DNA from: a phage
DNA length: 47,775 nucleotides
Sequence record: PZ445409.1
Reading direction: 5' to 3' (one strand)
Position numbers and translations under genes: made by a program
The notes under the pieces: model-generated
Seen by the model: only the letters and a program-made list of their open reading frames with translations
Told to the model about the DNA's origin: nothing
Database searches by the model: none
Shown: piece after piece, positions 1-47,775 of the stretch
How positions within the stretch are numbered: position 1 is the first letter of the stretch
Layout of the letters: each line of letters starts with the position of its first letter

Positions 1-1569
1 ATGATCATATGGGAAGATTTGACGGCGGCGCAAAAGCGAGCCATTAAAGAAATCAGTGAGCATTCATTCGAAAAGATGATCAGAATCTGGTTCCAGTTAT
101 TGCAGGGGCAAAAATTCCAGAGTAACTGGCATTTTAGCTTATTGTGCAGTGAGGTAGAGAAGATCATCAATGGAGAGTCGCAGAATGTGATTTTCAATAT
201 TACGCCAGGTAGCGGTAAGACTGAGATTTTCTCGATCCACATGTCACCCTACGCGTCATTGAAAAGCCGGAAGGTGAGAAATCTTAACCTTTCGTTTAGT
301 GATGGCCTTGTCCAGCAAAACAGCAACCGGATAAAGGAGATTATTGGTTCTCCTGAGTGGCAAGAGCTATGGCCAGGAAAACTGGCAAAGGCGAGCGCTA
401 AAGATCTGATAGTCACCGAAGGCGGCAAGGTTAAATTGCAAGTTAACTCACGTTCTATTGGCGGCCAGGTAACAGGTTTGCGTGGTGGCTATATGGACGA
501 TGGTTTTACTGGTATGCTGGTTCTTGACGATCCAGACAAGCCGGATGATATGCTTTCTAAGGTAAAGCGTGAGGCTATCCACATGCGGTTAAAAAACACA
601 GTGCGATCGCGTCGAATGAAAGACACAACTCCGATTGTTATGGTGCAACAGCGACTACACGTTAATGATTCCACCTGGTTTATGCTTAATGGCGGGATGG
701 GTGGTATTGAGTTTAAAGTCGTGAGCATTCCGGCGCTGGTTACGAAAGAATACCGCGAAACGCTTCCTGATTGGTTGAAGCCTGAATTTGATCGTGATGT
801 GCTATCAAGTAAGCCAGTGATGATAGATGGCGTTGCTCATTATTCATTTTGGCCTGCAAAGGAAAGCGCGGAGGAATTGCTTGCATTGCGCAATGCAGAT
901 CCTTACACGTTCGCCAGCCAATACCAACAGCAACCAATCGCGCTGGGCGGGAACGTGTTTAAAACAGAGTGGTTCCAGTATTACGGCAGCGGCGAAAAAT
1001 GCGCACTACCAAAACCTGATCGCTTTGAATACACATTTATTACTGGAGATACCGCGCAGAAGGCCGGAGAGCTTAACGACTATTCAGTTTTTTGTTATTG
1101 GGGGATGTATAAGAATCGCGTTTACTTCATTGATGGCATTCGCGGAAAGTGGGAAGCGCCGGATCTTGAATTAAATTTTATTGCCTTCGTTAACCAGTGC
1201 TGGAAGCGCAATAAGGAGTGTGGCAGCTTGCGACGTATCCACATTGAGGATAAGGCCAGCGGCACGGGTTTGATTCAGGGGGCCAAAAAGAAGATCCCGA
1301 TTGATATAAATCCCGTTCAGCGAAGCAATGACAAGGTGACGCGAGCAATGGACGCCGCGCCAGTAATGAGGGCCGGACGTGTGGCACTGCCAGAAAATCA
1401 CCCCATGCTGCCTGAGATACTAGCAGAGGTTGCAGCATTCACTTTTGATGATTCTCATCCCCATGATGATATTGTCGATAATATAGTTGATGCTGTTAAC
1501 GTCGAAATGAATTTGGCAGATGATCCGGTAGCAAGGATGAAAAAGCTGGCAGGTCTACGCAATAAATAG
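1..1569 (+). CDS. terL: terminase large subunit
   Basis: 522-aa ORF; N-terminal P-loop-like PGSGKT and acidic DDPDKPDD motifs; ATG at 1-3 overlaps the terS stop reconstituted across the window ends; hairpin+T-run follows. Confidence 0.85.
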   Translation: MIIWEDLTAAQKRAIKEISEHSFEKMIRIWFQLLQGQKFQSNWHFSLLCSEVEKIINGESQNVIFNITPGSGKTEIFSIHMSPYASLKSRKVRNLNLSFSDGLVQQNSNRIKEIIGSPEWQELWPGKLAKASAKDLIVTEGGKVKLQVNSRSIGGQVTGLRGGYMDDGFTGMLVLDDPDKPDDMLSKVKREAIHMRLKNTVRSRRMKDTTPIVMVQQRLHVNDSTWFMLNGGMGGIEFKVVSIPALVTKEYRETLPDWLKPEFDRDVLSSKPVMIDGVAHYSFWPAKESAEELLALRNADPYTFASQYQQQPIALGGNVFKTEWFQYYGSGEKCALPKPDRFEYTFITGDTAQKAGELNDYSVFCYWGMYKNRVYFIDGIRGKWEAPDLELNFIAFVNQCWKRNKECGSLRRIHIEDKASGTGLIQGAKKKIPIDINPVQRSNDKVTRAMDAAPVMRAGRVALPENHPMLPEILAEVAAFTFDDSHPHDDIVDNIVDAVNVEMNLADDPVARMKKLAGLRNK

Positions 1570-35366: not shown

Positions 35367-36946
35367 CCCAGCAGTATTGGATTGACAAAAATAACACCAT
35401 TAATCACACAAACATAATTTCTTTCTTCCAGCATTGGCAGCAAGTGCCCTTCTATCCTCTTCATTACGCCAGCCTGACCAACGAAAGGTTTTACCTTTCT
35501 CGCTGATTCGTACAGGGCGCGAATATTCAGGATCCCTTTGTTAGCCTTGCCGTGTCTAGTGATCAATTCAATCAATTTACCCATTTCAGCATCATCACCA
35601 GCATAACCAGAAGCATTGGCGGCGCTAATGTATGTTTTGCTCAATTCCTGAAACATGATCAGCGCCTCTTGCATTGTTTCCACGTCGATCTCTTTCGACT
35701 TCTGCGGGTATCCGGCAGGATTAAACCAGTTGCGGATAACATGCAGGACGGAAGCAAGCCTGATCACCTGTTTATCCATTTTACCCAGCGCACCGCGTAA
35801 CATTGTATGAGAATACTTTCCGCCGTCTGCAAGATGCGGTTCCATATCCTGGCGAGCAATGTTGAGCACTCGCATAGCTGAACGGCTTATTTTCAGCGAT
35901 ATATTTGATTCGCTCATGATGTTATGCACCAATTGATAATATTGGGCCTTCAATTCAGGATCCACCGCCTCATAGGTAGAATCACCATTTTCATCAATGA
36001 ATGAGCGACGGCCTAAGAATGATTCCTCACGGACCAACAAAAAGCGCTCACTCACACCGATACCGCGCGATCCAGCGTCCATGATTCCGCTTATCGTTTC
36101 ATCCTGGGCTATAACGCTCATACATCCAAGCGCGCGAAAACTCATGTTATTGTCAGCATTAGCACGGGCAATTGATACGTGACCATTATCCCACGCCTTA
36201 AGCACTAGCTCGCTGTTAGTCTTCCTTTCGCTATTGGCATAGGTCAAGCCTAACAGGCTGTTAATACTTGTTGCTTCGTCAGATATTACGGCAAAGTTAC
36301 CTTGCTTGTTGTTGATTTTCGCCAAGCCTTCTGGAGTGGTATCTGAAACAGGGAAAGTTATATCACACATCTTTTCCAGCTTCTCCTCCAGATCCTCTTT
36401 TTCCTGGTATAGAGATTCCATATCAGCGCCTGATCTTTCGCTTTTCATCTCCTTTGCAAGACCTGCCAACTTTGCCTGTATTTTCTTTCTTTCCTTGCGG
36501 CGTTGCTCGTTGATCTTCTCAACTTCCGCAATCATCGGAGCAATAGCCATACTGTTGATCGCAGATTTACCAGTTGACGGCGGCTGGCTTGTAACTACGT
36601 AAAGCGCAGTCGGCTGATCTGTTCCGTGGTAGTCAACTGTGAATCGACCAAGCATAGCGGCAGAAATACATCCGATAAAGTGCATGTAGGCCGATGATTC
36701 AGGGAATTGAACAGATCTCGCAAGATTGCGCGCCAGCTTACCAACTACATCAACATCATTCCCAAGTGAAATAACAGGGTAGCGGTCGTTACCGCCGTTA
36801 ATATCTTCCACCTGGCCCCAATAGCTTGAAGATTGGCGGTATCCGTTGGCCTGAATGGATACACGAACAGGGGAAATACCTTGAGATTCGGCGGTTTCAA
36901 TGATTTGTTTCGGTGATAACTGACTTGTTTCAAATGAAAAATTCAT
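35363..36946 (-). CDS. P-loop NTPase (DUF3987/primase-helicase-associated-like)
   Basis: 527-aa ORF with AGGAG RBS; deviant Walker A (QPPSTGKS), central charged coiled-coil segment; driven by promoter unit 36974-37016. Confidence 0.5.
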   Translation of the reverse strand: MNFSFETSQLSPKQIIETAESQGISPVRVSIQANGYRQSSSYWGQVEDINGGNDRYPVISLGNDVDVVGKLARNLARSVQFPESSAYMHFIGCISAAMLGRFTVDYHGTDQPTALYVVTSQPPSTGKSAINSMAIAPMIAEVEKINEQRRKERKKIQAKLAGLAKEMKSERSGADMESLYQEKEDLEEKLEKMCDITFPVSDTTPEGLAKINNKQGNFAVISDEATSINSLLGLTYANSERKTNSELVLKAWDNGHVSIARANADNNMSFRALGCMSVIAQDETISGIMDAGSRGIGVSERFLLVREESFLGRRSFIDENGDSTYEAVDPELKAQYYQLVHNIMSESNISLKISRSAMRVLNIARQDMEPHLADGGKYSHTMLRGALGKMDKQVIRLASVLHVIRNWFNPAGYPQKSKEIDVETMQEALIMFQELSKTYISAANASGYAGDDAEMGKLIELITRHGKANKGILNIRALYESARKVKPFVGQAGVMKRIEGHLLPMLEERNYVCVINGVIFVNPILLG

Positions 36947-37693: not shown

Positions 37694-38377
37694 TTTTGAG
37701 TTTGCCTCAAATACGGCGCGAGCAAATCCTCGCGGAGTGAGGGAGCGTAGTTGCTTTGTTCTGGCAGACTTACCTCCTAAAAACTTCCAACCCCAAAAGA
37801 ACATTACTCCCTCATCATTGCGTAACGGCTTGCGTTCCGGTTCGGTAAATCCGTTGCCGCACCAGATAGCCGTCCTTTTTGTGTAGCCATCCTTTAGCGG
37901 CATCTTGGGGTGAAAAGATCCATCGGATTCGTCCAGGTAGTTACCAAAATCGCGCGGATTGAAATAAAAATCAGGCTTGCGCCATAGCGTTGATAGTCGG
38001 CCTACAGGATTCTCAGCCATCCAGGGAACACCGAAATGATTCCCGACAGTTTCAACCATGATTGCATTTTTGAGCGCGATCTGAATATCATCATCGCTTC
38101 GCACGTGCTTGCTTCCTGATTGGGCAAACATGGTGCAGTCTGGAAATCCAAATACAATATCTGGTTTTGGAATATCCATCTTACTGATTCTTTCAATGAA
38201 ATTTTCATCAATCCACATATTAACATAATGCAGATTTTCATTCTTCATCTTGATGAAATATTCGCCGTGATTTCCCTCATCAGCGTTAAAGCAATAGCAT
38301 TGATAGCCAGCCTTCGCATATTCAAGCAGCATGATTCCAGATCCATCAAACATTGAGTAAGCAACTTTATTTCCCAT
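37691..38377 (-). CDS. DNA C5-cytosine methyltransferase-like protein lacking a target-recognition domain
   Basis: 228-aa ORF from ATG 38377 (track start 38437 is TTG); motif I SMFDGSG, motif IV-like DIVFGFPDC, motif VI-like MAENPVG, motif X-like RSLTPRGFARA; no region long enough for a TRD; TAG stop is first triplet of promoter element. Confidence 0.55.
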   Translation of the reverse strand: MGNKVAYSMFDGSGIMLLEYAKAGYQCYCFNADEGNHGEYFIKMKNENLHYVNMWIDENFIERISKMDIPKPDIVFGFPDCTMFAQSGSKHVRSDDDIQIALKNAIMVETVGNHFGVPWMAENPVGRLSTLWRKPDFYFNPRDFGNYLDESDGSFHPKMPLKDGYTKRTAIWCGNGFTEPERKPLRNDEGVMFFWGWKFLGGKSARTKQLRSLTPRGFARAVFEANSK

Positions 38378-38894
38378 GATTTTTATGATACCCCAATTCA
38401 TTCTCGGCTTTACGTTTTGCGGCAACAGCATCCCCAAAACTGGAGAAACAACCTATATAAATCCTACTTCCTCGCTTTCCGCTTCCAACCCTTACAACCC
38501 ATTTGCCATGTTTATTTTTATGCACACCTGGTATGCCACTTGTATTGTTTTTCTGCTTTGATGTGTTTCGCATATTTCCTTTGTGATCTTTTAACTCAAA
38601 GTTTATTGCTCTGTTATCAGTCGTAATGTGATTTAAGTGATCAACCTCCATTCCTTCCGGTATAGGCCCATAGTGCATTTCATAGCATATTCTATGAACT
38701 TTCAGGTTGTAACGTTTTCCGTTTACAGTAAGTGCGGTTTCTAAATATCTGCCACCACTACCCAAAGAGCCAACCTCATTACCAGCATTGCAAGCATTCC
38801 ATTGTTTAACTCTTGATTGGTGAATATCTTTTCTTTCTTTCCAGAACAGCTTTCCAGTTTCTGGATTGTATGTAAAGTAATCGTGCCAATTCAT
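38367..38894 (-). CDS. HNH homing endonuclease with AP2-like DNA-binding domain
   Basis: 175-aa ORF with GAGGTGA RBS; HNH motif EVDHLNHITTDNRAIN; C-terminal GVHKNKHGKWVVRVGSGKRGSRIYIGCFSSF AP2-type fold signature; 3-prime end overlaps start of methyltransferase-like gene. Confidence 0.7.
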   Translation of the reverse strand: MNWHDYFTYNPETGKLFWKERKDIHQSRVKQWNACNAGNEVGSLGSGGRYLETALTVNGKRYNLKVHRICYEMHYGPIPEGMEVDHLNHITTDNRAINFELKDHKGNMRNTSKQKNNTSGIPGVHKNKHGKWVVRVGSGKRGSRIYIGCFSSFGDAVAAKRKAENELGYHKNHGK

Positions 38895-40836: not shown

Positions 40837-41108
40837 TACTTCTTGATCTCCTCACTGATAAATTTCAGCACCCGGCGCAAGAAAACTTCGTTGTTGATAG
40901 TCGCTGGCAATTCTTCTTTCACCTCTTGCGGCAGATAGATATTGCCGTGCCAGGTCAAGCAATCGTAGTTGATACGATAAGAGCAAAGCCACTCGCAATC
41001 GTTATCTGCTTCCCAAATGCAGAGTTGCAGAACATCTCCTAAGTTCTCAACAGTCAGATCCAGACCGTGACGCTTAGCGAAATTGAAAGTGGTTTTGCTG
41101 ATGTTCAT
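40836..41108 (-). CDS. hypothetical protein (first gene of leftward operon)
   Basis: 90-aa ORF with AGGAG RBS, 30 nt after promoter hexamer at 41144-41149. Confidence 0.5.
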   Translation of the reverse strand: MNISKTTFNFAKRHGLDLTVENLGDVLQLCIWEADNDCEWLCSYRINYDCLTWHGNIYLPQEVKEELPATINNEVFLRRVLKFISEEIKK

Positions 41109-41143
41109 TTGCTATCTCCTGAGCGGTTTGTTTTGATGTGTGT

Positions 41144-41186
41144 AATGTACCCGATCAGGTGGCCTGAGTTTTAACAAAAAGTGCGA
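41144..41186 (-). promoter_or_regulatory. phage promoter unit (variant element + TACATT), first leftward promoter
   Basis: Minus strand TCGCACTTTTTGTTAAAAC + 18 nt + TACATT + ACACACATC leader; AGGAG RBS; ATG 41108. Confidence 0.6.
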
Positions 41187-41218
41187 TTTGACGGTTAGCG
41201 CCAGGATTGTGATAGAAA

Positions 41219-41306
41219 TAATCAAAAGTAATCATTCGTAATCAAATCACGTCAAAATGATGATTGCCTTTGCAAATTTGATGAGAAAAGTAATCACGTT
41301 TAATCA
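41219..41306. repeat. 10-bp-phased GTAATCA/TAATCA iteron-like repeats
   Basis: TAATCA at 41219, 41229, 41239 and at 41291, 41301 (exact 10-bp spacing within each set); partial inverted copy TGATTG at 41261. Confidence 0.5.
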
Positions 41307-41726
41307 TTGGTTGCAGTGGAGATAGTGAAACCTTCCCCTCTTGCCTCACTTTTCCGCCTGGCTGTCAGTGGTTGTTATGTTCCGTTTTCGCCTGTTCTTT
41401 TGTTGACCTTCCGCAAAATACGATAACAAAAAATAACAAACAATACCTATATAATACATTGAAAAATAAGGATTATTTATTTATATGTATCTATATATTC
41501 TCTTTTGTTATCTTGGTTATTGTGGTATTTGGTGGGGGTATATAGTTTTTGTGTATCTATATGTGTGTATGGGTATGTAGGGGCATATATATCTATATGG
41601 CACTTTCCGCGATAAAACTTCGATAACAAGCAATGATAACATTGATTTATAAGGAAAAATAACGCCCATATTGTTATTGTGCCACCATATAAAATTGATA
41701 AAACACGCGGGAACAAGAAAAAACAG
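41307..41726. repeat. AT-rich regulatory region B, paralogous to region A
   Basis: TTCCGC..CGATAAC at 41409-41427 and 41605-41627; GTATCTATAT blocks at 41487, 41553, 41589; T/G-rich core 41499-41545; GGGAACAAGAAAAA at 41709-41722. Confidence 0.5.
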
Positions 41727-41755
41727 TTGACACATTAAATAGCATTATTGATAAT
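41727..41755 (+). promoter_or_regulatory. near-consensus sigma70 promoter (TTGACA-17-GATAAT with TG) for rightward operon
   Basis: -35 at 41727-41732, extended -10 TGATAAT at 41749-41755; preceded by GGGAACAAGAAAAA element. Confidence 0.6.
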
Positions 41756-41783
41756 GCCCACACCTAACAACCAGGAGGTAGAA

Positions 41784-42248
41784 ATGAGCGAGCAATCATT
41801 CACTGACACGCTGCGCCGTGCCGCTATTATGCTTGCCAATGGCGAGGAAGAGACGATCAAGATTCCTGACGCGTATTTGCAGGTCCACATGTTCGGCAAG
41901 AAGTCGGCAAGCAATCCGGCGGCCTACATTCGCCAGATCATGAGTCGAGTGCCAGAAGTCGCCGAGCGGGGGCGTGTATCCGTTACACGTGGCGTTTACG
42001 GGCCGGAAGATGAAAACTTCGGTAGCACTTTCTACGAGGTGCGGATTGTTGAAGGCCGTCGCAAGGTTTACAACAAAGAGGCACTGGAAAGGGCAGTGCG
42101 CCAGGCTAAGCGCAAGGTTGCAGAGGCGATCATTGATATGTCACCAAACCTGGCAAACTATGCGCCGGAAGAGTATGAAACATTATCAAAGGCCGTCGCT
42201 GACTTTCACGCGATGATCAAAAAAACTTTCCTGGAGGATGAGCAATGA
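41784..42248 (+). CDS. hypothetical protein (first gene of rightward operon)
   Basis: 154-aa ORF from ATG 41784 with AGGAGG RBS, downstream of near-consensus sigma70 promoter 41727-41755. Confidence 0.55.
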   Translation: MSEQSFTDTLRRAAIMLANGEEETIKIPDAYLQVHMFGKKSASNPAAYIRQIMSRVPEVAERGRVSVTRGVYGPEDENFGSTFYEVRIVEGRRKVYNKEALERAVRQAKRKVAEAIIDMSPNLANYAPEEYETLSKAVADFHAMIKKTFLEDEQ

Positions 42249-45198: not shown

Positions 45199-45411
45199 AT
45201 GAAAATTAAAATCACCAAAATCGACACCATCAACGGCGACGGATCAATCACTCTTGAGCAATGCGGTTTGGTTGTTGGTGATGTGCTGGAGGTTGACGGT
45301 CATTTCAGCGACGGATCTTATTGTGTTATTGCGCCGCGTAACAGCGAGTTTATCAAGGCTGGCGACAATATTAGTGTTAACCATGACGAATGCGAGGTAG
45401 TAGAAGAATGA
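45199..45411 (+). CDS. hypothetical small acidic protein
   Basis: 70-aa ORF, about 14 Asp/Glu vs 5 Lys/Arg; after promoter unit 45124-45166. Confidence 0.5.
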   Translation: MKIKITKIDTINGDGSITLEQCGLVVGDVLEVDGHFSDGSYCVIAPRNSEFIKAGDNISVNHDECEVVEE

Positions 45412-46573: not shown

Positions 46574-46807
46574 ATGATCAAATACAAATTAACCGTTTCT
46601 TTCCGTGATACCGTTATTCATCCTTTCTACAATAGCTTTGTTAACAGCTTTACAGTAGAAGTTACAGAGGATCAGCTAGACGGTGACGAAACTTGCATTT
46701 CTATTGGAAATGTTGCTTACCCGATTCACAACATTACCAGCATTAAGCGTGAGGTTGTCGCTGATGAATTACAAAGTGAAGATGAAGATCCGGCGAATGG
46801 GGCGTAA
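46574..46807 (+). CDS. hypothetical acidic protein
   Basis: 77-aa ORF with GGAG RBS downstream of sigma70-like promoter and leader hairpin; acidic C-terminus. Confidence 0.5.
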   Translation: MIKYKLTVSFRDTVIHPFYNSFVNSFTVEVTEDQLDGDETCISIGNVAYPIHNITSIKREVVADELQSEDEDPANGA

Positions 46808-46949
46808 TTGCCAATCATGCAAACAGGAATATGAATGCGTAGTTGATGCTCTTGATGAACTGGAAGCAGTAGCAAAAGCAAAAGAGCAATCGGGCGCTAA
46901 TCCTGAAACACATCAATTTTCAATTAACCTTGTGAGGGCTTTACAATGA
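46764..46949 (+). CDS. hypothetical small protein (start uncertain)
   Basis: 61-aa ORF in frame with track ORF 46683-46949; GAGG RBS before ATG 46764; overlaps upstream gene; CxxC...C motif. Confidence 0.35.
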   Translation: MNYKVKMKIRRMGRNCQSCKQEYECVVDALDELEAVAKAKEQSGANPETHQFSINLVRALQ

Positions 46950-47170
46950 TCGCATTATCTTTCTGCATTGGTTTTATCATGGCTATCATTATCTTTTCCG
47001 TTGTCATGCGCTTTGCTTATAAGTTCGTTATTAATAAAGGCTGGTACGCTTCTGCAATCTGGAGCGAAAAACAAAAGAAATGGCTTGTACGTGGTCAATA
47101 CCTGATGATCGGAAGCAAGATCCTAAATTCCATTCGAGCCAAAGATGGAAAAGTAAAATATACAGCTTAA
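46946..47170 (+). CDS. small membrane protein
   Basis: 74-aa ORF, ATGA overlap; N-terminal hydrophobic helix; followed by terminator 47177-47199. Confidence 0.5.
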   Translation: MIALSFCIGFIMAIIIFSVVMRFAYKFVINKGWYASAIWSEKQKKWLVRGQYLMIGSKILNSIRAKDGKVKYTA

Positions 47171-47176
47171 AAATTA

Positions 47177-47199
47177 CCCGCCGCACGGCGGGTTTTTTA
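47177..47199 (+). terminator. intrinsic terminator before terS
   Basis: Hairpin cccgccgcacggcggg + TTTTTT. Confidence 0.65.
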
Positions 47200-47248
47200 T
47201 TGCCCGTTGTCTGGTATAATCAGGCATCTAACCAAAGGAGGATTAATA

Positions 47249-47775
47249 ATGGCTAAAAATGTTGAGCCTGCTGTAAAGGCATTAAATTTCAAAGAGTTAT
47301 ACAATAAAACTTATGGCGATATTGTCACGCTAAACAACCGCCACAAGTACACGCCGGAACAGGTTTTTGATATGGCGATCCGCTATTTCACTTGGGCCGA
47401 AGAGAATCACATCCAGGCGGCTGAAACTGCTTCCTTTCAGGGTGACGTGTACGAGAGCAGAGTTTACAAGCCTCGCGTTTTCACGGTAAACGGATTCAGC
47501 TTGTATCTCGGCGTTACTGAGGCGGCTGTAAGCAAGTGGCGTAAAGAGCCTGGATTCTGCGATGTGATGGAGTTTGTTGATAAAGTAATTTACGAGCAAA
47601 AATTCCAGCTTGCGGCAAATAACATGATTAACGCTGGATTTATCGGTAAAGAGATCGGAGTGGAGAAGCCAGCAACAGTGAGCGTTGAAGCGAGCGCGGC
47701 AGCTAATGCAAGCATTGACGCAGTAACTGCCGATGAGGTGAAAGAGGCTGTGATTGATATTCTGGAGCAACTTTA
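47249..47775 (+). CDS. terS: terminase small subunit (3-prime end completed by nt 1 of window)
   Basis: ATG 47249 with AAGGAGG RBS; open to window end (175 codons + TA); HTH-like FSLYLGVTEAAVSKWRK; final TA plus nt 1 gives TAA overlapping terL ATG. Confidence 0.7.
   Translation, partial: MAKNVEPAVKALNFKELYNKTYGDIVTLNNRHKYTPEQVFDMAIRYFTWAEENHIQAAETASFQGDVYESRVYKPRVFTVNGFSLYLGVTEAAVSKWRKEPGFCDVMEFVDKVIYEQKFQLAANNMINAGFIGKEIGVEKPATVSVEASAAANASIDAVTADEVKEAVIDILEQL

What the first reader, a model, noticed from the sequence alone, without database searches (positions are those of the whole stretch)
41219..41306. GTAATCA iteron-like repeats at exact 10-bp phasing
TAATCA occurs at 41219, 41229, 41239 and again at 41291, 41301, each set spaced exactly one helical turn apart (three preceded by G), with a partial inverted copy (TGATTG) between the sets. 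Same-face phased repeats are typical of cooperative binding sites for replication initiators or repressors.
Basis: seen in the sequence. Interest (0 to 1): 0.5.

Follow-up and report, generated by a model that had tools for sequence, protein, structure and literature searches.

The report
Candidate T1-like phage packaging-start repeats
The phased TAATCA repeats are real and non-random, and they lie where T1-like phages begin packaging their DNA, so they are more likely the docking site of the small terminase (a pac site) than a replication origin or repressor operator.

Summary
Observation confirmed. TAATCA sits at 41219/41229/41239 and 41291/41301. The first three form the only exact hexamer triple at 10-bp spacing in the 47.8-kb genome (0.02 expected).

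The window is a complete, circularly permuted genome of a T1-like coliphage (Drexlerviridae, Warwickvirus). The array lies in the 675-bp divergent early intergenic region.

This is the region where T1-family genome ends have been placed:
- T1 record position 1, the start of its 2.8-kb terminal repeat.
- The restriction-mapped pac site of phage TLS.
- The PhageTerm terminus of phage MSK.
- The openings of three GenBank records. One of them, XY3, carries a near-identical array with all five TAATCA copies and opens 18 bp downstream of it (41324|41325).

The array and this TerS variant (a P22 gp3 homologue) occur in exactly the same 60 of 50,697 phage records. Sister clades keep TerL at about 92% identity, but their TerS is about 72% identical and they carry a different repeat array. 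TerS variability peaks in the second helix of a predicted helix-turn-helix.

The array contains no promoter, DnaA/IHF/CRP consensus, P22-type pac or RNA family match.

Best reading (about 0.5): a pac recognition array for TerS, with packaging proceeding rightward. Rivals: an early-promoter operator, or origin iterons. Binding and cleavage are untested.

The parts
41219..41244 (+). Repeat set 1: three TAATCA cores at exact 10-bp spacing (ATAATCA, GTAATCA, GTAATCA), each separated by an A-rich or 3-4-nt spacer.
   Evidence: It is the only 10/10-spaced hexamer triple in the genome. It is present in all 60 related records at 95.7-98.6% identity.
41209..41215 (+). Degenerate fourth copy in phase, 10 bp upstream of set 1. 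It reads GTGATAG here and GTAATCG in IMG/VR contig 3300045988_025133.
   Evidence: loci L004/L088.
41259..41267 (+). ATGATTGCC: an inverted, one-mismatch copy (TGATTG) between the two sets. TGATTG is the orientation and form repeated in T1, TLS, L015 and L044.
41291..41306 (+). Repeat set 2: GTAATCA and TTAATCA 10 bp apart, and 62 bp (about 6 helical turns) from the matching pair in set 1.
   Evidence: family D3.
41309..41332 (+). Conserved block GGTTGCAGTGGAGATA|GTGAAACC directly downstream of the array. The inferred packaging cut is at 41324|41325.
   Evidence: The XY3 record carries a near-identical array with all five TAATCA copies and opens exactly here. PHB17 opens at the homologous GGGGAATC|GTGAAACC, and haarsle opens about 6 nt upstream.
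41171..41188 (-). T1-family 21-nt intergenic element (ATCGCACTTTTTGTTAAAA on the - strand). It marks the left edge of the array module and the probable upstream element of the leftward early promoter.
   Evidence: 16 copies in the window against 0.11 expected. The element was described for phage TLS (PMC11447400). A recombination breakpoint falls here.
47249..47775 (+). terS, the small terminase gene (175 aa; its stop codon wraps onto window position 1). It is the proposed reader of the array, 5.9 kb downstream.
   Evidence: Pfam GP3_package; P22 gp3 3P9A, E 1.7e-15. The same 60 records carry this TerS and the array.
41727..41755 (+). Rightward early promoter TTGACA-17-GATAAT (11 of 12 matches) ahead of the first rightward gene (ATG at 41784). 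It is context only and is not part of the array.

Best explanation
The TAATCA array (about 41209-41306) is the recognition part of the phage's pac site. The proposed mechanism has three steps:
1. Several helix-turn-helix domains of the oligomeric small terminase (TerS, a P22 gp3 homologue) dock on the same face of an A-tract-bent stretch of concatemeric DNA.
2. TerS positions the large terminase to make the first cut a few tens of bp away. The best estimate is 41324|41325, in the conserved GGAGATA|GTGAAACC block.
3. Headful packaging then runs rightward through the early genes, terS and terL.

Shown here: the repeats, their non-randomness, their conservation, their position relative to reported termini in relatives, and their co-occurrence with one TerS variant.

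Inferred: that TerS is the binding protein, that the cut is at this point in this phage, and the direction of packaging.
For: 1. Location.
- The array lies in the intergenic region homologous to the one holding T1 record position 1, the start of the annotated 2,800-bp terminal repeat.
- It is also homologous to the region holding TLS position 1, a pac site mapped with restriction fragments (PMC11447400).
- The PhageTerm forward terminus of phage MSK, 36,862, falls in the same region (PMC8421802).
- Measured from the conserved 21-nt element, the six termini or record openings lie at +84 to +148 nt. That corresponds to window 41272-41336, against 41219-41306 for the array.

2. Record openings. 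XY3 carries a near-identical array with all five TAATCA copies and is opened 18 bp downstream of it. PHB17, from another genus, is opened at the homologous nucleotide, and haarsle about 6 nt away.

3. Co-occurrence. Exactly the same 60 accessions hold the array at 95% identity or more and this TerS at 98% or more. No intermediate TerS exists: the next band is 60-80% identity, and the next homologue among 5.8 billion proteins is 77% identical.

4. TerS diverges with the array while TerL does not.
- Phages with TATTCC/GGAATA-type arrays have TerL at 92-93% aa identity but TerS at 71-72%.
- Their left-flank gene is 92-96% identical, so the array does not travel with the left promoter or gene.
- One IMG/VR mosaic keeps the array, terS and terL at 94.5% nt identity while its portal and head genes are 76% identical.

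5. TerS structure. TerS has a predicted helix-turn-helix (helices 80-87 and 91-99, pLDDT about 87). Its most variable internal positions across 84 homologues are residues 89 and 91-95, at the start of the second helix, between invariant flanks.

6. Other genera. Each carries its own phased short repeats at the same place, often built on TGATT(G/A): 49 observed against 13 expected over 14 of the 15 loci examined, the 15th having no detectable 21-nt element.

7. Bending. The A-tracts are 10-bp phased, consistent with bent DNA.

8. Precedent. The TerS review PMC9611059 describes pac sites as either a 22-bp asymmetric sequence (P22) or multiple TerS contacts flanking the cut (SPP1).
Against: - No binding, cleavage or read-end data exist for this phage.
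- The T1 and TLS positions come from restriction mapping refined by weak similarity, so they are good only to about +/-100 bp.
- How XY3, PHB17 and haarsle were opened is undocumented. The agreement of three records could reflect a shared convention rather than physical ends.
- The 60/60 co-occurrence is confounded by phylogeny, because all 60 records are Warwickvirus.
- Several small ORFs of unknown function (45199-45411 and 46574-47256) co-vary just as well as terS does.
- Substitutions among relatives do hit the hexamers (CAATCA in tiwna, TAATCG in tonnikala), so purifying selection on the cores is not demonstrated.
- The site is 5.9 kb from terS, whereas in P22, Sf6, SPP1 and P1 the pac site lies in or next to the terS gene.
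- Sequence-specific pac binding by P22-type TerS has been hard to show in vitro (PMC9611059).
Confidence: 0.5

Rival explanations
1. The array is an operator or activator array. An early phage-encoded (or host) transcription factor binds it cooperatively to switch the divergent early promoters. These are the leftward promoter with the 21-nt element at 41171-41188 and the rightward promoters further right.
For: - The array lies in the main divergent regulatory region, 30-120 bp upstream of the leftward 21-nt promoter-like element.
- Same-face direct repeats upstream of a promoter suit an activator or a looping repressor.
- A second family of phased boxes (ATAACAA at 41423 and 41433) sits just upstream of a consensus TATAAT at 41449, so this region clearly uses phased boxes for something.
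- Several unannotated small early ORFs co-vary with the array.
Against: - No promoter scoring at least 9 of 12 overlaps the array. The best hand-found candidate is 8 of 12 (and reading).
- The array does not travel with the left gene or promoter. L007-L012 keep that gene at 92-96% identity with a different array, and L083 keeps the array with a different left gene.
- It does not travel with the right-hand box module or the first right gene either. That gene is 28% identical in tuinn, tonnikala and vB_EcoS-95, which keep the array.
- No neighbouring ORF has a recognised DNA-binding domain.
- No host-factor consensus is present: no IHF, CRP or DnaA site, and the best Fur match is 13 of 19.
Confidence: 0.2
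2. The repeats are iterons of the phage replication origin. A so far unidentified initiator binds them and opens the AT-rich stretch further right (41440-41600).
For: - The T1-family origin is unknown (PMC11447400 and PMC7718038).
- The intergenic region combines phased direct repeats with a strongly AT-rich, TATATA-rich block, and it sits at the switch point of divergent transcription.
Against: - The units are 10 bp with 6-7-bp cores, not the usual 17-22-bp iterons at about two-turn spacing.
- The AT-rich block is about 135 bp away and is separated from the array by a G/C-rich conserved block.
- That block plus its own ATAACA boxes is exchanged independently of the array within the genus. The breakpoint lies at about 41376-41396.
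- There are no DnaA boxes or IHF sites.
- No initiator-like gene was found among the flanking ORFs.
- This reading does not explain why genome termini map here.
Confidence: 0.12
3. The array has no dedicated binding protein. It is a recently duplicated, intrinsically bent A-tract spacer, conserved only because the Warwickvirus genomes are young and about 97% identical.
For: - Identity within the array (95.7-98.6%) is no higher than in its flanks, and two of the few substitutions fall inside hexamers.
- Diversity within the genus is too low to show selection.
Against: - The arrangement has a chance expectation of 0.02 per genome.
- Non-homologous phased repeat arrays occupy the same slot in at least six other genera. 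This argues for a recurring functional requirement rather than an accident.
Confidence: 0.08

Closest known systems
SPP1 pac site (pacL / pacC / pacR), bound by the small terminase G1P
   Same: - Headful (pac) phage.
- Several short, helically phased TerS contact boxes on bent DNA lie on both sides of, or next to, the first cut.
- Packaging is unidirectional from the cut.
[quoted passage not shown] The remaining details are from my own knowledge of Chai et al. 1995.
   Different: - The SPP1 TerS belongs to a different sequence family.
- The SPP1 pac site lies at the start of the terS gene, whereas here the array is 5.9 kb upstream of terS.
- The box sequences are unrelated.
- Binding is not shown here.
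P1 pac site (hexamer TGATCA/G, four copies on one side and three on the other side of the cut)
   Same: Two clusters of a repeated hexamer (here three or four copies plus two of TGATTA, read on the - strand) are separated by a spacer of about 46 bp. This resemblance is recalled from Sternberg and Coulby 1987-1990 and was not tested here.
   Different: - The P1 hexamers contain GATC and are regulated by Dam methylation. The array here has no GATC between 41154 and 41800.
- In P1 the cut lies between the clusters. Here the best-supported cut is just outside set 2.
- The P1 PacA/PacB proteins are unrelated to this TerS.
P22 pac site and gp3 small terminase
   Same: - The TerS here is a true homologue of P22 gp3: Pfam PF16677, phmmer E 1.7e-15 against 3P9A, and Foldseek probability 1.0.
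- Both phages package by the headful mechanism.
   Different: - P22 uses a single 22-bp asymmetric sequence inside gene 3.
- No P22-like pac sequence exists in this genome: one match with 2 mismatches against 5.8 expected, and it is not in terS.
- The candidate site here is a repeat array far from terS.
Phage lambda cosB (R1-R3 gpNu1 sites plus an IHF site)
   Same: Repeated small-terminase binding sites lie next to the nicking site and work through DNA bending (from my own knowledge).
   Different: - Lambda is a cos phage, not a pac phage.
- Its R sites are 16 bp long.
- An IHF site is needed in lambda, and none is found here.
T1 and TLS pac assignments in the literature
   Same: The same homologous intergenic region is involved. 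The GenBank T1 record starts there, and the TLS pac site was mapped there.
   Different: The TLS paper assigned pac to a single AGATTT by weak similarity to P22 and reported no iteron-like repeats in the genome. The phased arrays, their genus specificity and their link to the TerS helix-turn-helix are not described in the papers I could read.

Membership tests
pac site of a headful-packaging phage (TerS recognition plus first cut) | Coincides with the physical end of the first-headful virion DNA. | tested here: inconclusive
   No reads or virion DNA are available for this phage. Indirect evidence: six termini or record openings in relatives map to window 41272-41336. One of these, XY3, carries a near-identical array with all five TAATCA copies and opens at 41324|41325. 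How those records were opened is not documented.
pac site of a headful-packaging phage (TerS recognition plus first cut) | The phage packages by the headful mechanism and encodes a TerS/TerL pair. | tested here: met
   TerS (47249-47775) and TerL (1-1569) were identified. Headful pac packaging has been reported for T1, TLS, MSK, Warwickvirus-like and Tlsvirus phages.
pac site of a headful-packaging phage (TerS recognition plus first cut) | The site co-varies with its cognate TerS. | tested here: met
   The same 60 accessions carry the array and this TerS. Sister clades with other arrays have TerS at 71-72% identity against TerL at 92-93%. The result is confounded by phylogeny, and other small ORFs co-vary as well.
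pac site of a headful-packaging phage (TerS recognition plus first cut) | Bound specifically by TerS, and necessary and sufficient in cis for packaging initiation. | not testable with these tools
   Needs EMSA or footprinting, plasmid transduction and mutagenesis.
P22-type pac (single 22-bp asymmetric sequence inside terS) | A sequence related to AAGATTTATCTG located inside the terS gene. | tested here: not met
   There is one match with 2 mismatches, at 40932, which is not in terS. 5.8 such matches are expected by chance.
Iterons of a replication origin | Direct repeats of about 17-22 bp at roughly two-turn spacing, bound by a linked initiator gene. | tested here: not met
   The units are 10 bp with 6-7-bp cores. 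No initiator-like family was found among 24 flanking ORFs in Pfam or PHROGs.
Iterons of a replication origin | An adjoining AT-rich unwinding element, often with DnaA or IHF sites. | tested here: inconclusive
   An AT-rich block exists at about 41440-41600. However, it is 135 bp away, it lies beyond a G/C-rich block, and it is exchanged independently of the array. No DnaA or IHF consensus is present.
Repressor operator array | Sites overlap or flank the -35/-10 elements of the regulated promoter, are usually dyad-symmetric, and have a cognate regulator gene nearby. | tested here: not met
   No promoter-like site scoring at least 9 of 12 lies within 41190-41340. The repeats are direct, not palindromic. 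No helix-turn-helix regulator was recognised next to the array.

The most novel reading that the evidence does not exclude
T1-family phages mark their packaging start with genus-specific arrays of helically phased short repeats placed 6-9 kb upstream of terS. Each array is read by a hypervariable recognition helix in an otherwise conserved P22-gp3-type small terminase. Nature would then have supplied a graded series of matched TerS-helix and pac-array pairs: TAATCA, TATTCC/GGAATA, TTGCA and TGATTG types. Swapping these pairs could show how a ring-shaped TerS reads DNA sequence, which the TerS literature still treats as unresolved.
Probability: 0.3. Interest if true: 0.6.

Novelty: new member of a known kind. 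Interest (0 to 1): 0.4.

Why it matters
- T1 is one of the classic coliphages and a notorious laboratory contaminant. Its pac site was cloned in the 1980s, but in the papers I could read it has never been defined at sequence level. The 2024 TLS re-annotation still assigns it by a 6-nt resemblance to P22.
- A concrete fragment of about 120 bp (41200-41335), with five mutable hexamers and a predicted cut, makes the T1-family pac site directly testable.
- The fragment would be useful for building T1-based transducing or packaging vectors, and for opening Drexlerviridae genome records in a consistent way.
- If the link to the variable TerS helix holds, the family offers natural specificity variants for the open question of how small terminases recognise DNA.
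- If the operator or origin reading is right instead, the array would be the first cis-element defined for T1 early regulation or replication.

Tried and rejected
- Host-factor sites. There is no IHF (WATCAANNNNTTR), DnaA box or CRP site in 41100-41800. The best Fur-box match is 13 of 19. Rejected.
- Promoter inside the array. The scan found only the rightward promoter at 41727 and one at 41803. By hand, the best leftward candidate is TTGATT-16-GATTAT, 8 of 12. Too weak to rely on.
- Non-coding RNA. The Rfam E-value scan of 41000-41900 gave only chance hits far below gathering scores, and no terminator was found.
- P22-type pac sequence. Absent.
- Selection on the hexamers within the genus. 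Diversity is too low (about 97% identity), and substitutions fall both inside and outside the cores. Uninformative.
- Metagenome and IMG/VR scans with the flanking pattern GGAGATAGTGAAACCTTCC. These gave only five more true relatives. The other hits were unrelated chance matches.
- Nearest divergent TerS (P0002, 77% identity). Its contig ends just short of the intergenic region, so no intermediate array could be read.
- Literature. Roberts et al. 2004 (T1 genome) and Wietzorrek et al. 2006 (Rtp) are not held. I therefore could not check how T1 position 1 was fixed. Papers on SU57, KanT1, 7WV, SH6, phiC119 and Rogue1 gave no terminus coordinates.
- First rightward gene (41784-42248) as the binding protein. 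Rejected, because it is only 28% identical in three phages that keep the array.

Full report
**What the window is.**
The window is 97.5% identical over the tested stretch to Escherichia phage tiwna and its relatives (Drexlerviridae, Tempevirinae, Warwickvirus). It is a complete, circularly permuted genome opened at the ATG of the large terminase. TerL occupies 1-1569, and the small terminase gene terS runs from 47249 to the last base, with its stop codon overlapping position 1.

The finding lies in the single large non-coding region of the genome, 41109-41783. Leftward early genes start at 41108 on the - strand. Rightward genes start at 41784 behind a strong sigma-70 promoter, TTGACA-17-GATAAT at 41727-41755.

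**The observation.**
- TAATCA starts at 41219, 41229, 41239, 41291 and 41301, and three copies are preceded by G.
- TGATTG, a one-mismatch inverted copy, is at 41261.
- The hexamer is ordinary in frequency: 46 copies on both strands against 34.7 expected.
- The arrangement is not ordinary. The triple is the only exact hexamer triple at 10/10-bp spacing in 47,775 bp, and 200 dinucleotide-preserving shuffles gave 0.02 per genome.
- The real unit is about 21 nt, AAAAGTAATCAnnnKTAATCA, present twice 62 bp apart. A degenerate in-phase copy at 41209 is intact (GTAATCG) in one relative.
- AAA tracts across 41171-41330 rank 4th to 32nd of 4,766 windows for 10-bp periodicity. The stretch is therefore probably intrinsically bent.

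**What flanks the array.**
Immediately to the left, at 41171-41188 on the - strand, is a copy of the T1-family 21-nt element ATAGCACnnnTTGnTAAAA. The window holds 16 copies against 0.11 expected. The element was described for phage TLS as lying about 76 nt upstream of start codons, with unknown function (PMC11447400). Here it sits 63-80 nt upstream of the first leftward gene, so it is the likely upstream part of the leftward promoter.

Immediately to the right of the array is a conserved block, GGTTGCAGTGGAGATAGTGAAACC (41309-41332). Further right there is a second, unrelated family of 10-bp-phased boxes (ATAACAA at 41423 and 41433) just upstream of a consensus TATAAT, followed by an AT-rich block with three TATCTATAT repeats.

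**Relatives.**
The 141-bp stretch 41195-41335 is found at 95.7-98.6% identity in 60 of 50,697 phage records and at no lower identity. Loci fetched through the conserved left gene show that other Drexlerviridae genera share the 21-nt element and the downstream G-rich block. Between those two blocks, however, each carries its own short phased repeats:
- TATTCC x2 plus GGAATA x2 and a TTAATCA..TGATTAA palindrome (haarsle type).
- GGAATA x2 and GATGTGATTGTTGC x2 (T1).
- TAGACCGATTGGTC x2 and a run of TGATT (TLS).
- Five TCGTCA/TTGTCA/TAATCA copies at 10-11 bp (L014).
- Three TTGATT at exactly 10 bp, in the opposite orientation (L015).
- TTGCA/TGCAA repeats (PHB17, MSK).

TGATT/AATCA is loosely shared across these arrays. 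There are 49 copies against 13 expected in the 150 nt right of the element, summed over 14 of the 15 loci examined (one had no detectable element). That count picked the best element per locus, so it is somewhat favourable.

**Genome ends map here.**
- The T1 RefSeq record starts in this region and annotates 1-2800 as the terminal repeat.
- The TLS record also starts here. Its authors mapped pac with a submolar 6-kb HindIII fragment and an EcoRV sub-fragment, then picked AGATTT by resemblance to P22.
- For the Rtp-like phage MSK, PhageTerm gave a forward terminus at 36,862 (P = 1.6e-9). That position is again in this region.
- Three GenBank records are opened here. XY3 is a Warwickvirus with a near-identical array containing all five TAATCA copies, and it opens at GGGGAGATA|GTGAAACC, which is window 41324|41325. 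PHB17, from another genus, opens at the homologous GGGGAATC|GTGAAACC. haarsle opens about 6 nt upstream.
- Measured from the end of the 21-nt element, the six points are +84, +119, +126, +136, +146 and +148 nt. That is window 41272-41336, against 41219-41306 for the array.

The T1 and TLS points are coarse. I could not find how the three records were opened. Three independent openings within 7 aligned nucleotides in 50-kb genomes are hard to explain except by real ends or a shared convention.

**Link to the small terminase.**
- TerS is a homologue of P22 gp3 (Pfam PF16677; phmmer E 1.7e-15 against 3P9A; Foldseek probability 1.0).
- The 60 records with TerS at 98% identity or more are the same 60 accessions that carry the array.
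- There is a gap below them. The next TerS band is 60-80% identity, and the next homologue among 5.8 billion proteins is 77% identical.
- In haarsle-type phages TerL is 92-93% identical to the window's, but TerS is only 71-72% identical and the array differs. Their left-flank gene is 92-96% identical.
- Breakpoints bracket the array. To the left of 41190 the sequence is shared with other clades, or replaced while the array stays (L083). To the right of about 41376-41396, two alternative modules occur within the genus.
- One IMG/VR mosaic keeps the array, the early operon, terS and terL at 94.5% nt identity, but has portal and head genes at 76%.
- The AlphaFold model (mean pLDDT 70, about 87 in the core) has helices 80-87 and 91-99 separated by a G-V/T turn, with a classic helix-turn-helix pattern (FSLYLGVTEAAVSKWRK). 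Over 84 homologues the most variable internal positions are 89 and 91-95, between invariant flanks.
- From memory, and not checked here: a P22 specificity-altering (HT) change lies in the aligned helix of gp3.

**Caveats.**
- All 60 records belong to one genus, so co-occurrence is confounded by descent.
- Small ORFs at 45199-45411 and 46574-47256 co-vary equally well and have no known domains.

**What the array is not.**
- No promoter scoring at least 9 of 12 lies in it.
- It has no IHF, DnaA or CRP consensus, and the best Fur match is only 13 of 19.
- There is no P22-type pac sequence anywhere relevant in the genome.
- There is no Rfam family match and no terminator.
- Its 10-bp units with 6-7-bp cores do not look like origin iterons.
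- The AT-rich block is 135 bp away and is exchanged independently of the array.

**Verdict.**
The repeats are real, non-random and conserved. The best-supported reading, at about 0.5, is the recognition array of the T1-family pac site. TerS helix-turn-helix domains would dock on one face of bent DNA, TerL would cut about 18 bp downstream (41324|41325), and packaging would run rightward. This follows the logic of the multi-contact SPP1 pac site (PMC9611059) and, from memory, the hexamer clusters of P1 pac.

An early-promoter operator or activator array (about 0.2) and origin iterons (about 0.12) remain possible. A chance or structural origin is unlikely (about 0.08). It is a new member of a known kind rather than a new kind of element. 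Its main value is that it turns the long-undefined T1 pac site into a short, testable fragment.

Noticed in passing
window 1566, 6191, 9949, 20741, 26469, 28031, 30520, 31591, 34835, 36999, 37676, 40085, 41169, 42502, 43803, 45123: There are 16 copies of the T1-family 21-nt element ATAGCACnnnTTGnTAAAA against 0.11 expected. Its function is stated as unknown in the TLS paper. Three copies (6191, 9949, 20741) are on the - strand inside the + strand structural gene block, which does not fit the published statement that all copies point in the direction of transcription.
   Followed up: partly
window 41415-41455: A second, unrelated 10-bp-phased repeat (ATAACAA at 41423 and 41433) ends about 10 bp upstream of a consensus TATAAT (41449-41454) that has no -35 element. 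Other genera have different phased boxes in the same slot: AAATTACGCC x2 in T1 and GAACA boxes in TLS. It looks like an activator-dependent promoter or the true origin boxes.
   Followed up: partly
window 41483-41598: Three copies of TATCTATAT lie in a TATA-rich block (41483, 41549, 41585). An AT-rich block of this kind is conserved in position across Drexlerviridae genera. It may be an unwinding element or a cluster of -10-like sequences.
   Followed up: no
window 41190 and about 41376-41396: Sharp recombination breakpoints lie on both sides of the array module. The left gene with its 21-nt element, and the right-hand box/AT-rich/first-gene module, are each exchanged between lineages independently of the array.
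   Followed up: yes
window 1-1569 and 47249-47775: The window is a whole circularly permuted genome opened at the terL ATG. The terS stop codon (TAA) overlaps the terL start across the window junction.
   Followed up: yes
L053/L089 (IMGVR_UViG_3300045988_032316): This is a mosaic relative. Its early operon, terS and terL are 94.5% identical in nucleotides to the window, while everything from the portal gene onward is about 76% identical. The breakpoint is at the end of terL (window about 1524-1559).
   Followed up: partly
GenBank MG0656xx records: Between 12 and 22 records labelled 'Campylobacter phage A1xx', with host Campylobacter jejuni, are T1-like coliphage sequences at 82-92% identity to this family. 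They are probably contaminants or mislabelled records.
   Followed up: no
L002 103-123 (T1 record): T1 carries a second copy of the 21-nt element inside the intergenic region, about 100 nt right of its record start. It is followed by its own phased repeats: CGATTA x2, AAATTACGCC x2, and CGATTAACAC x3 further right.
   Followed up: no
window 38367-38894 (-): By eye, this 175-aa ORF has HNH and AP2-like motifs (EVDHLNH..., GIPGVH...KWVVRV), which suggests a homing endonuclease inserted beside the Dam methylase gene. This was not checked with a profile search.
   Followed up: no
window 47249-47773 (TerS residues 26-33): TerS has a second hypervariable internal patch at residues 26-33 (VTLNNRHK), just before the first long helix. 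It may also contribute to DNA or TerL specificity.
   Followed up: no
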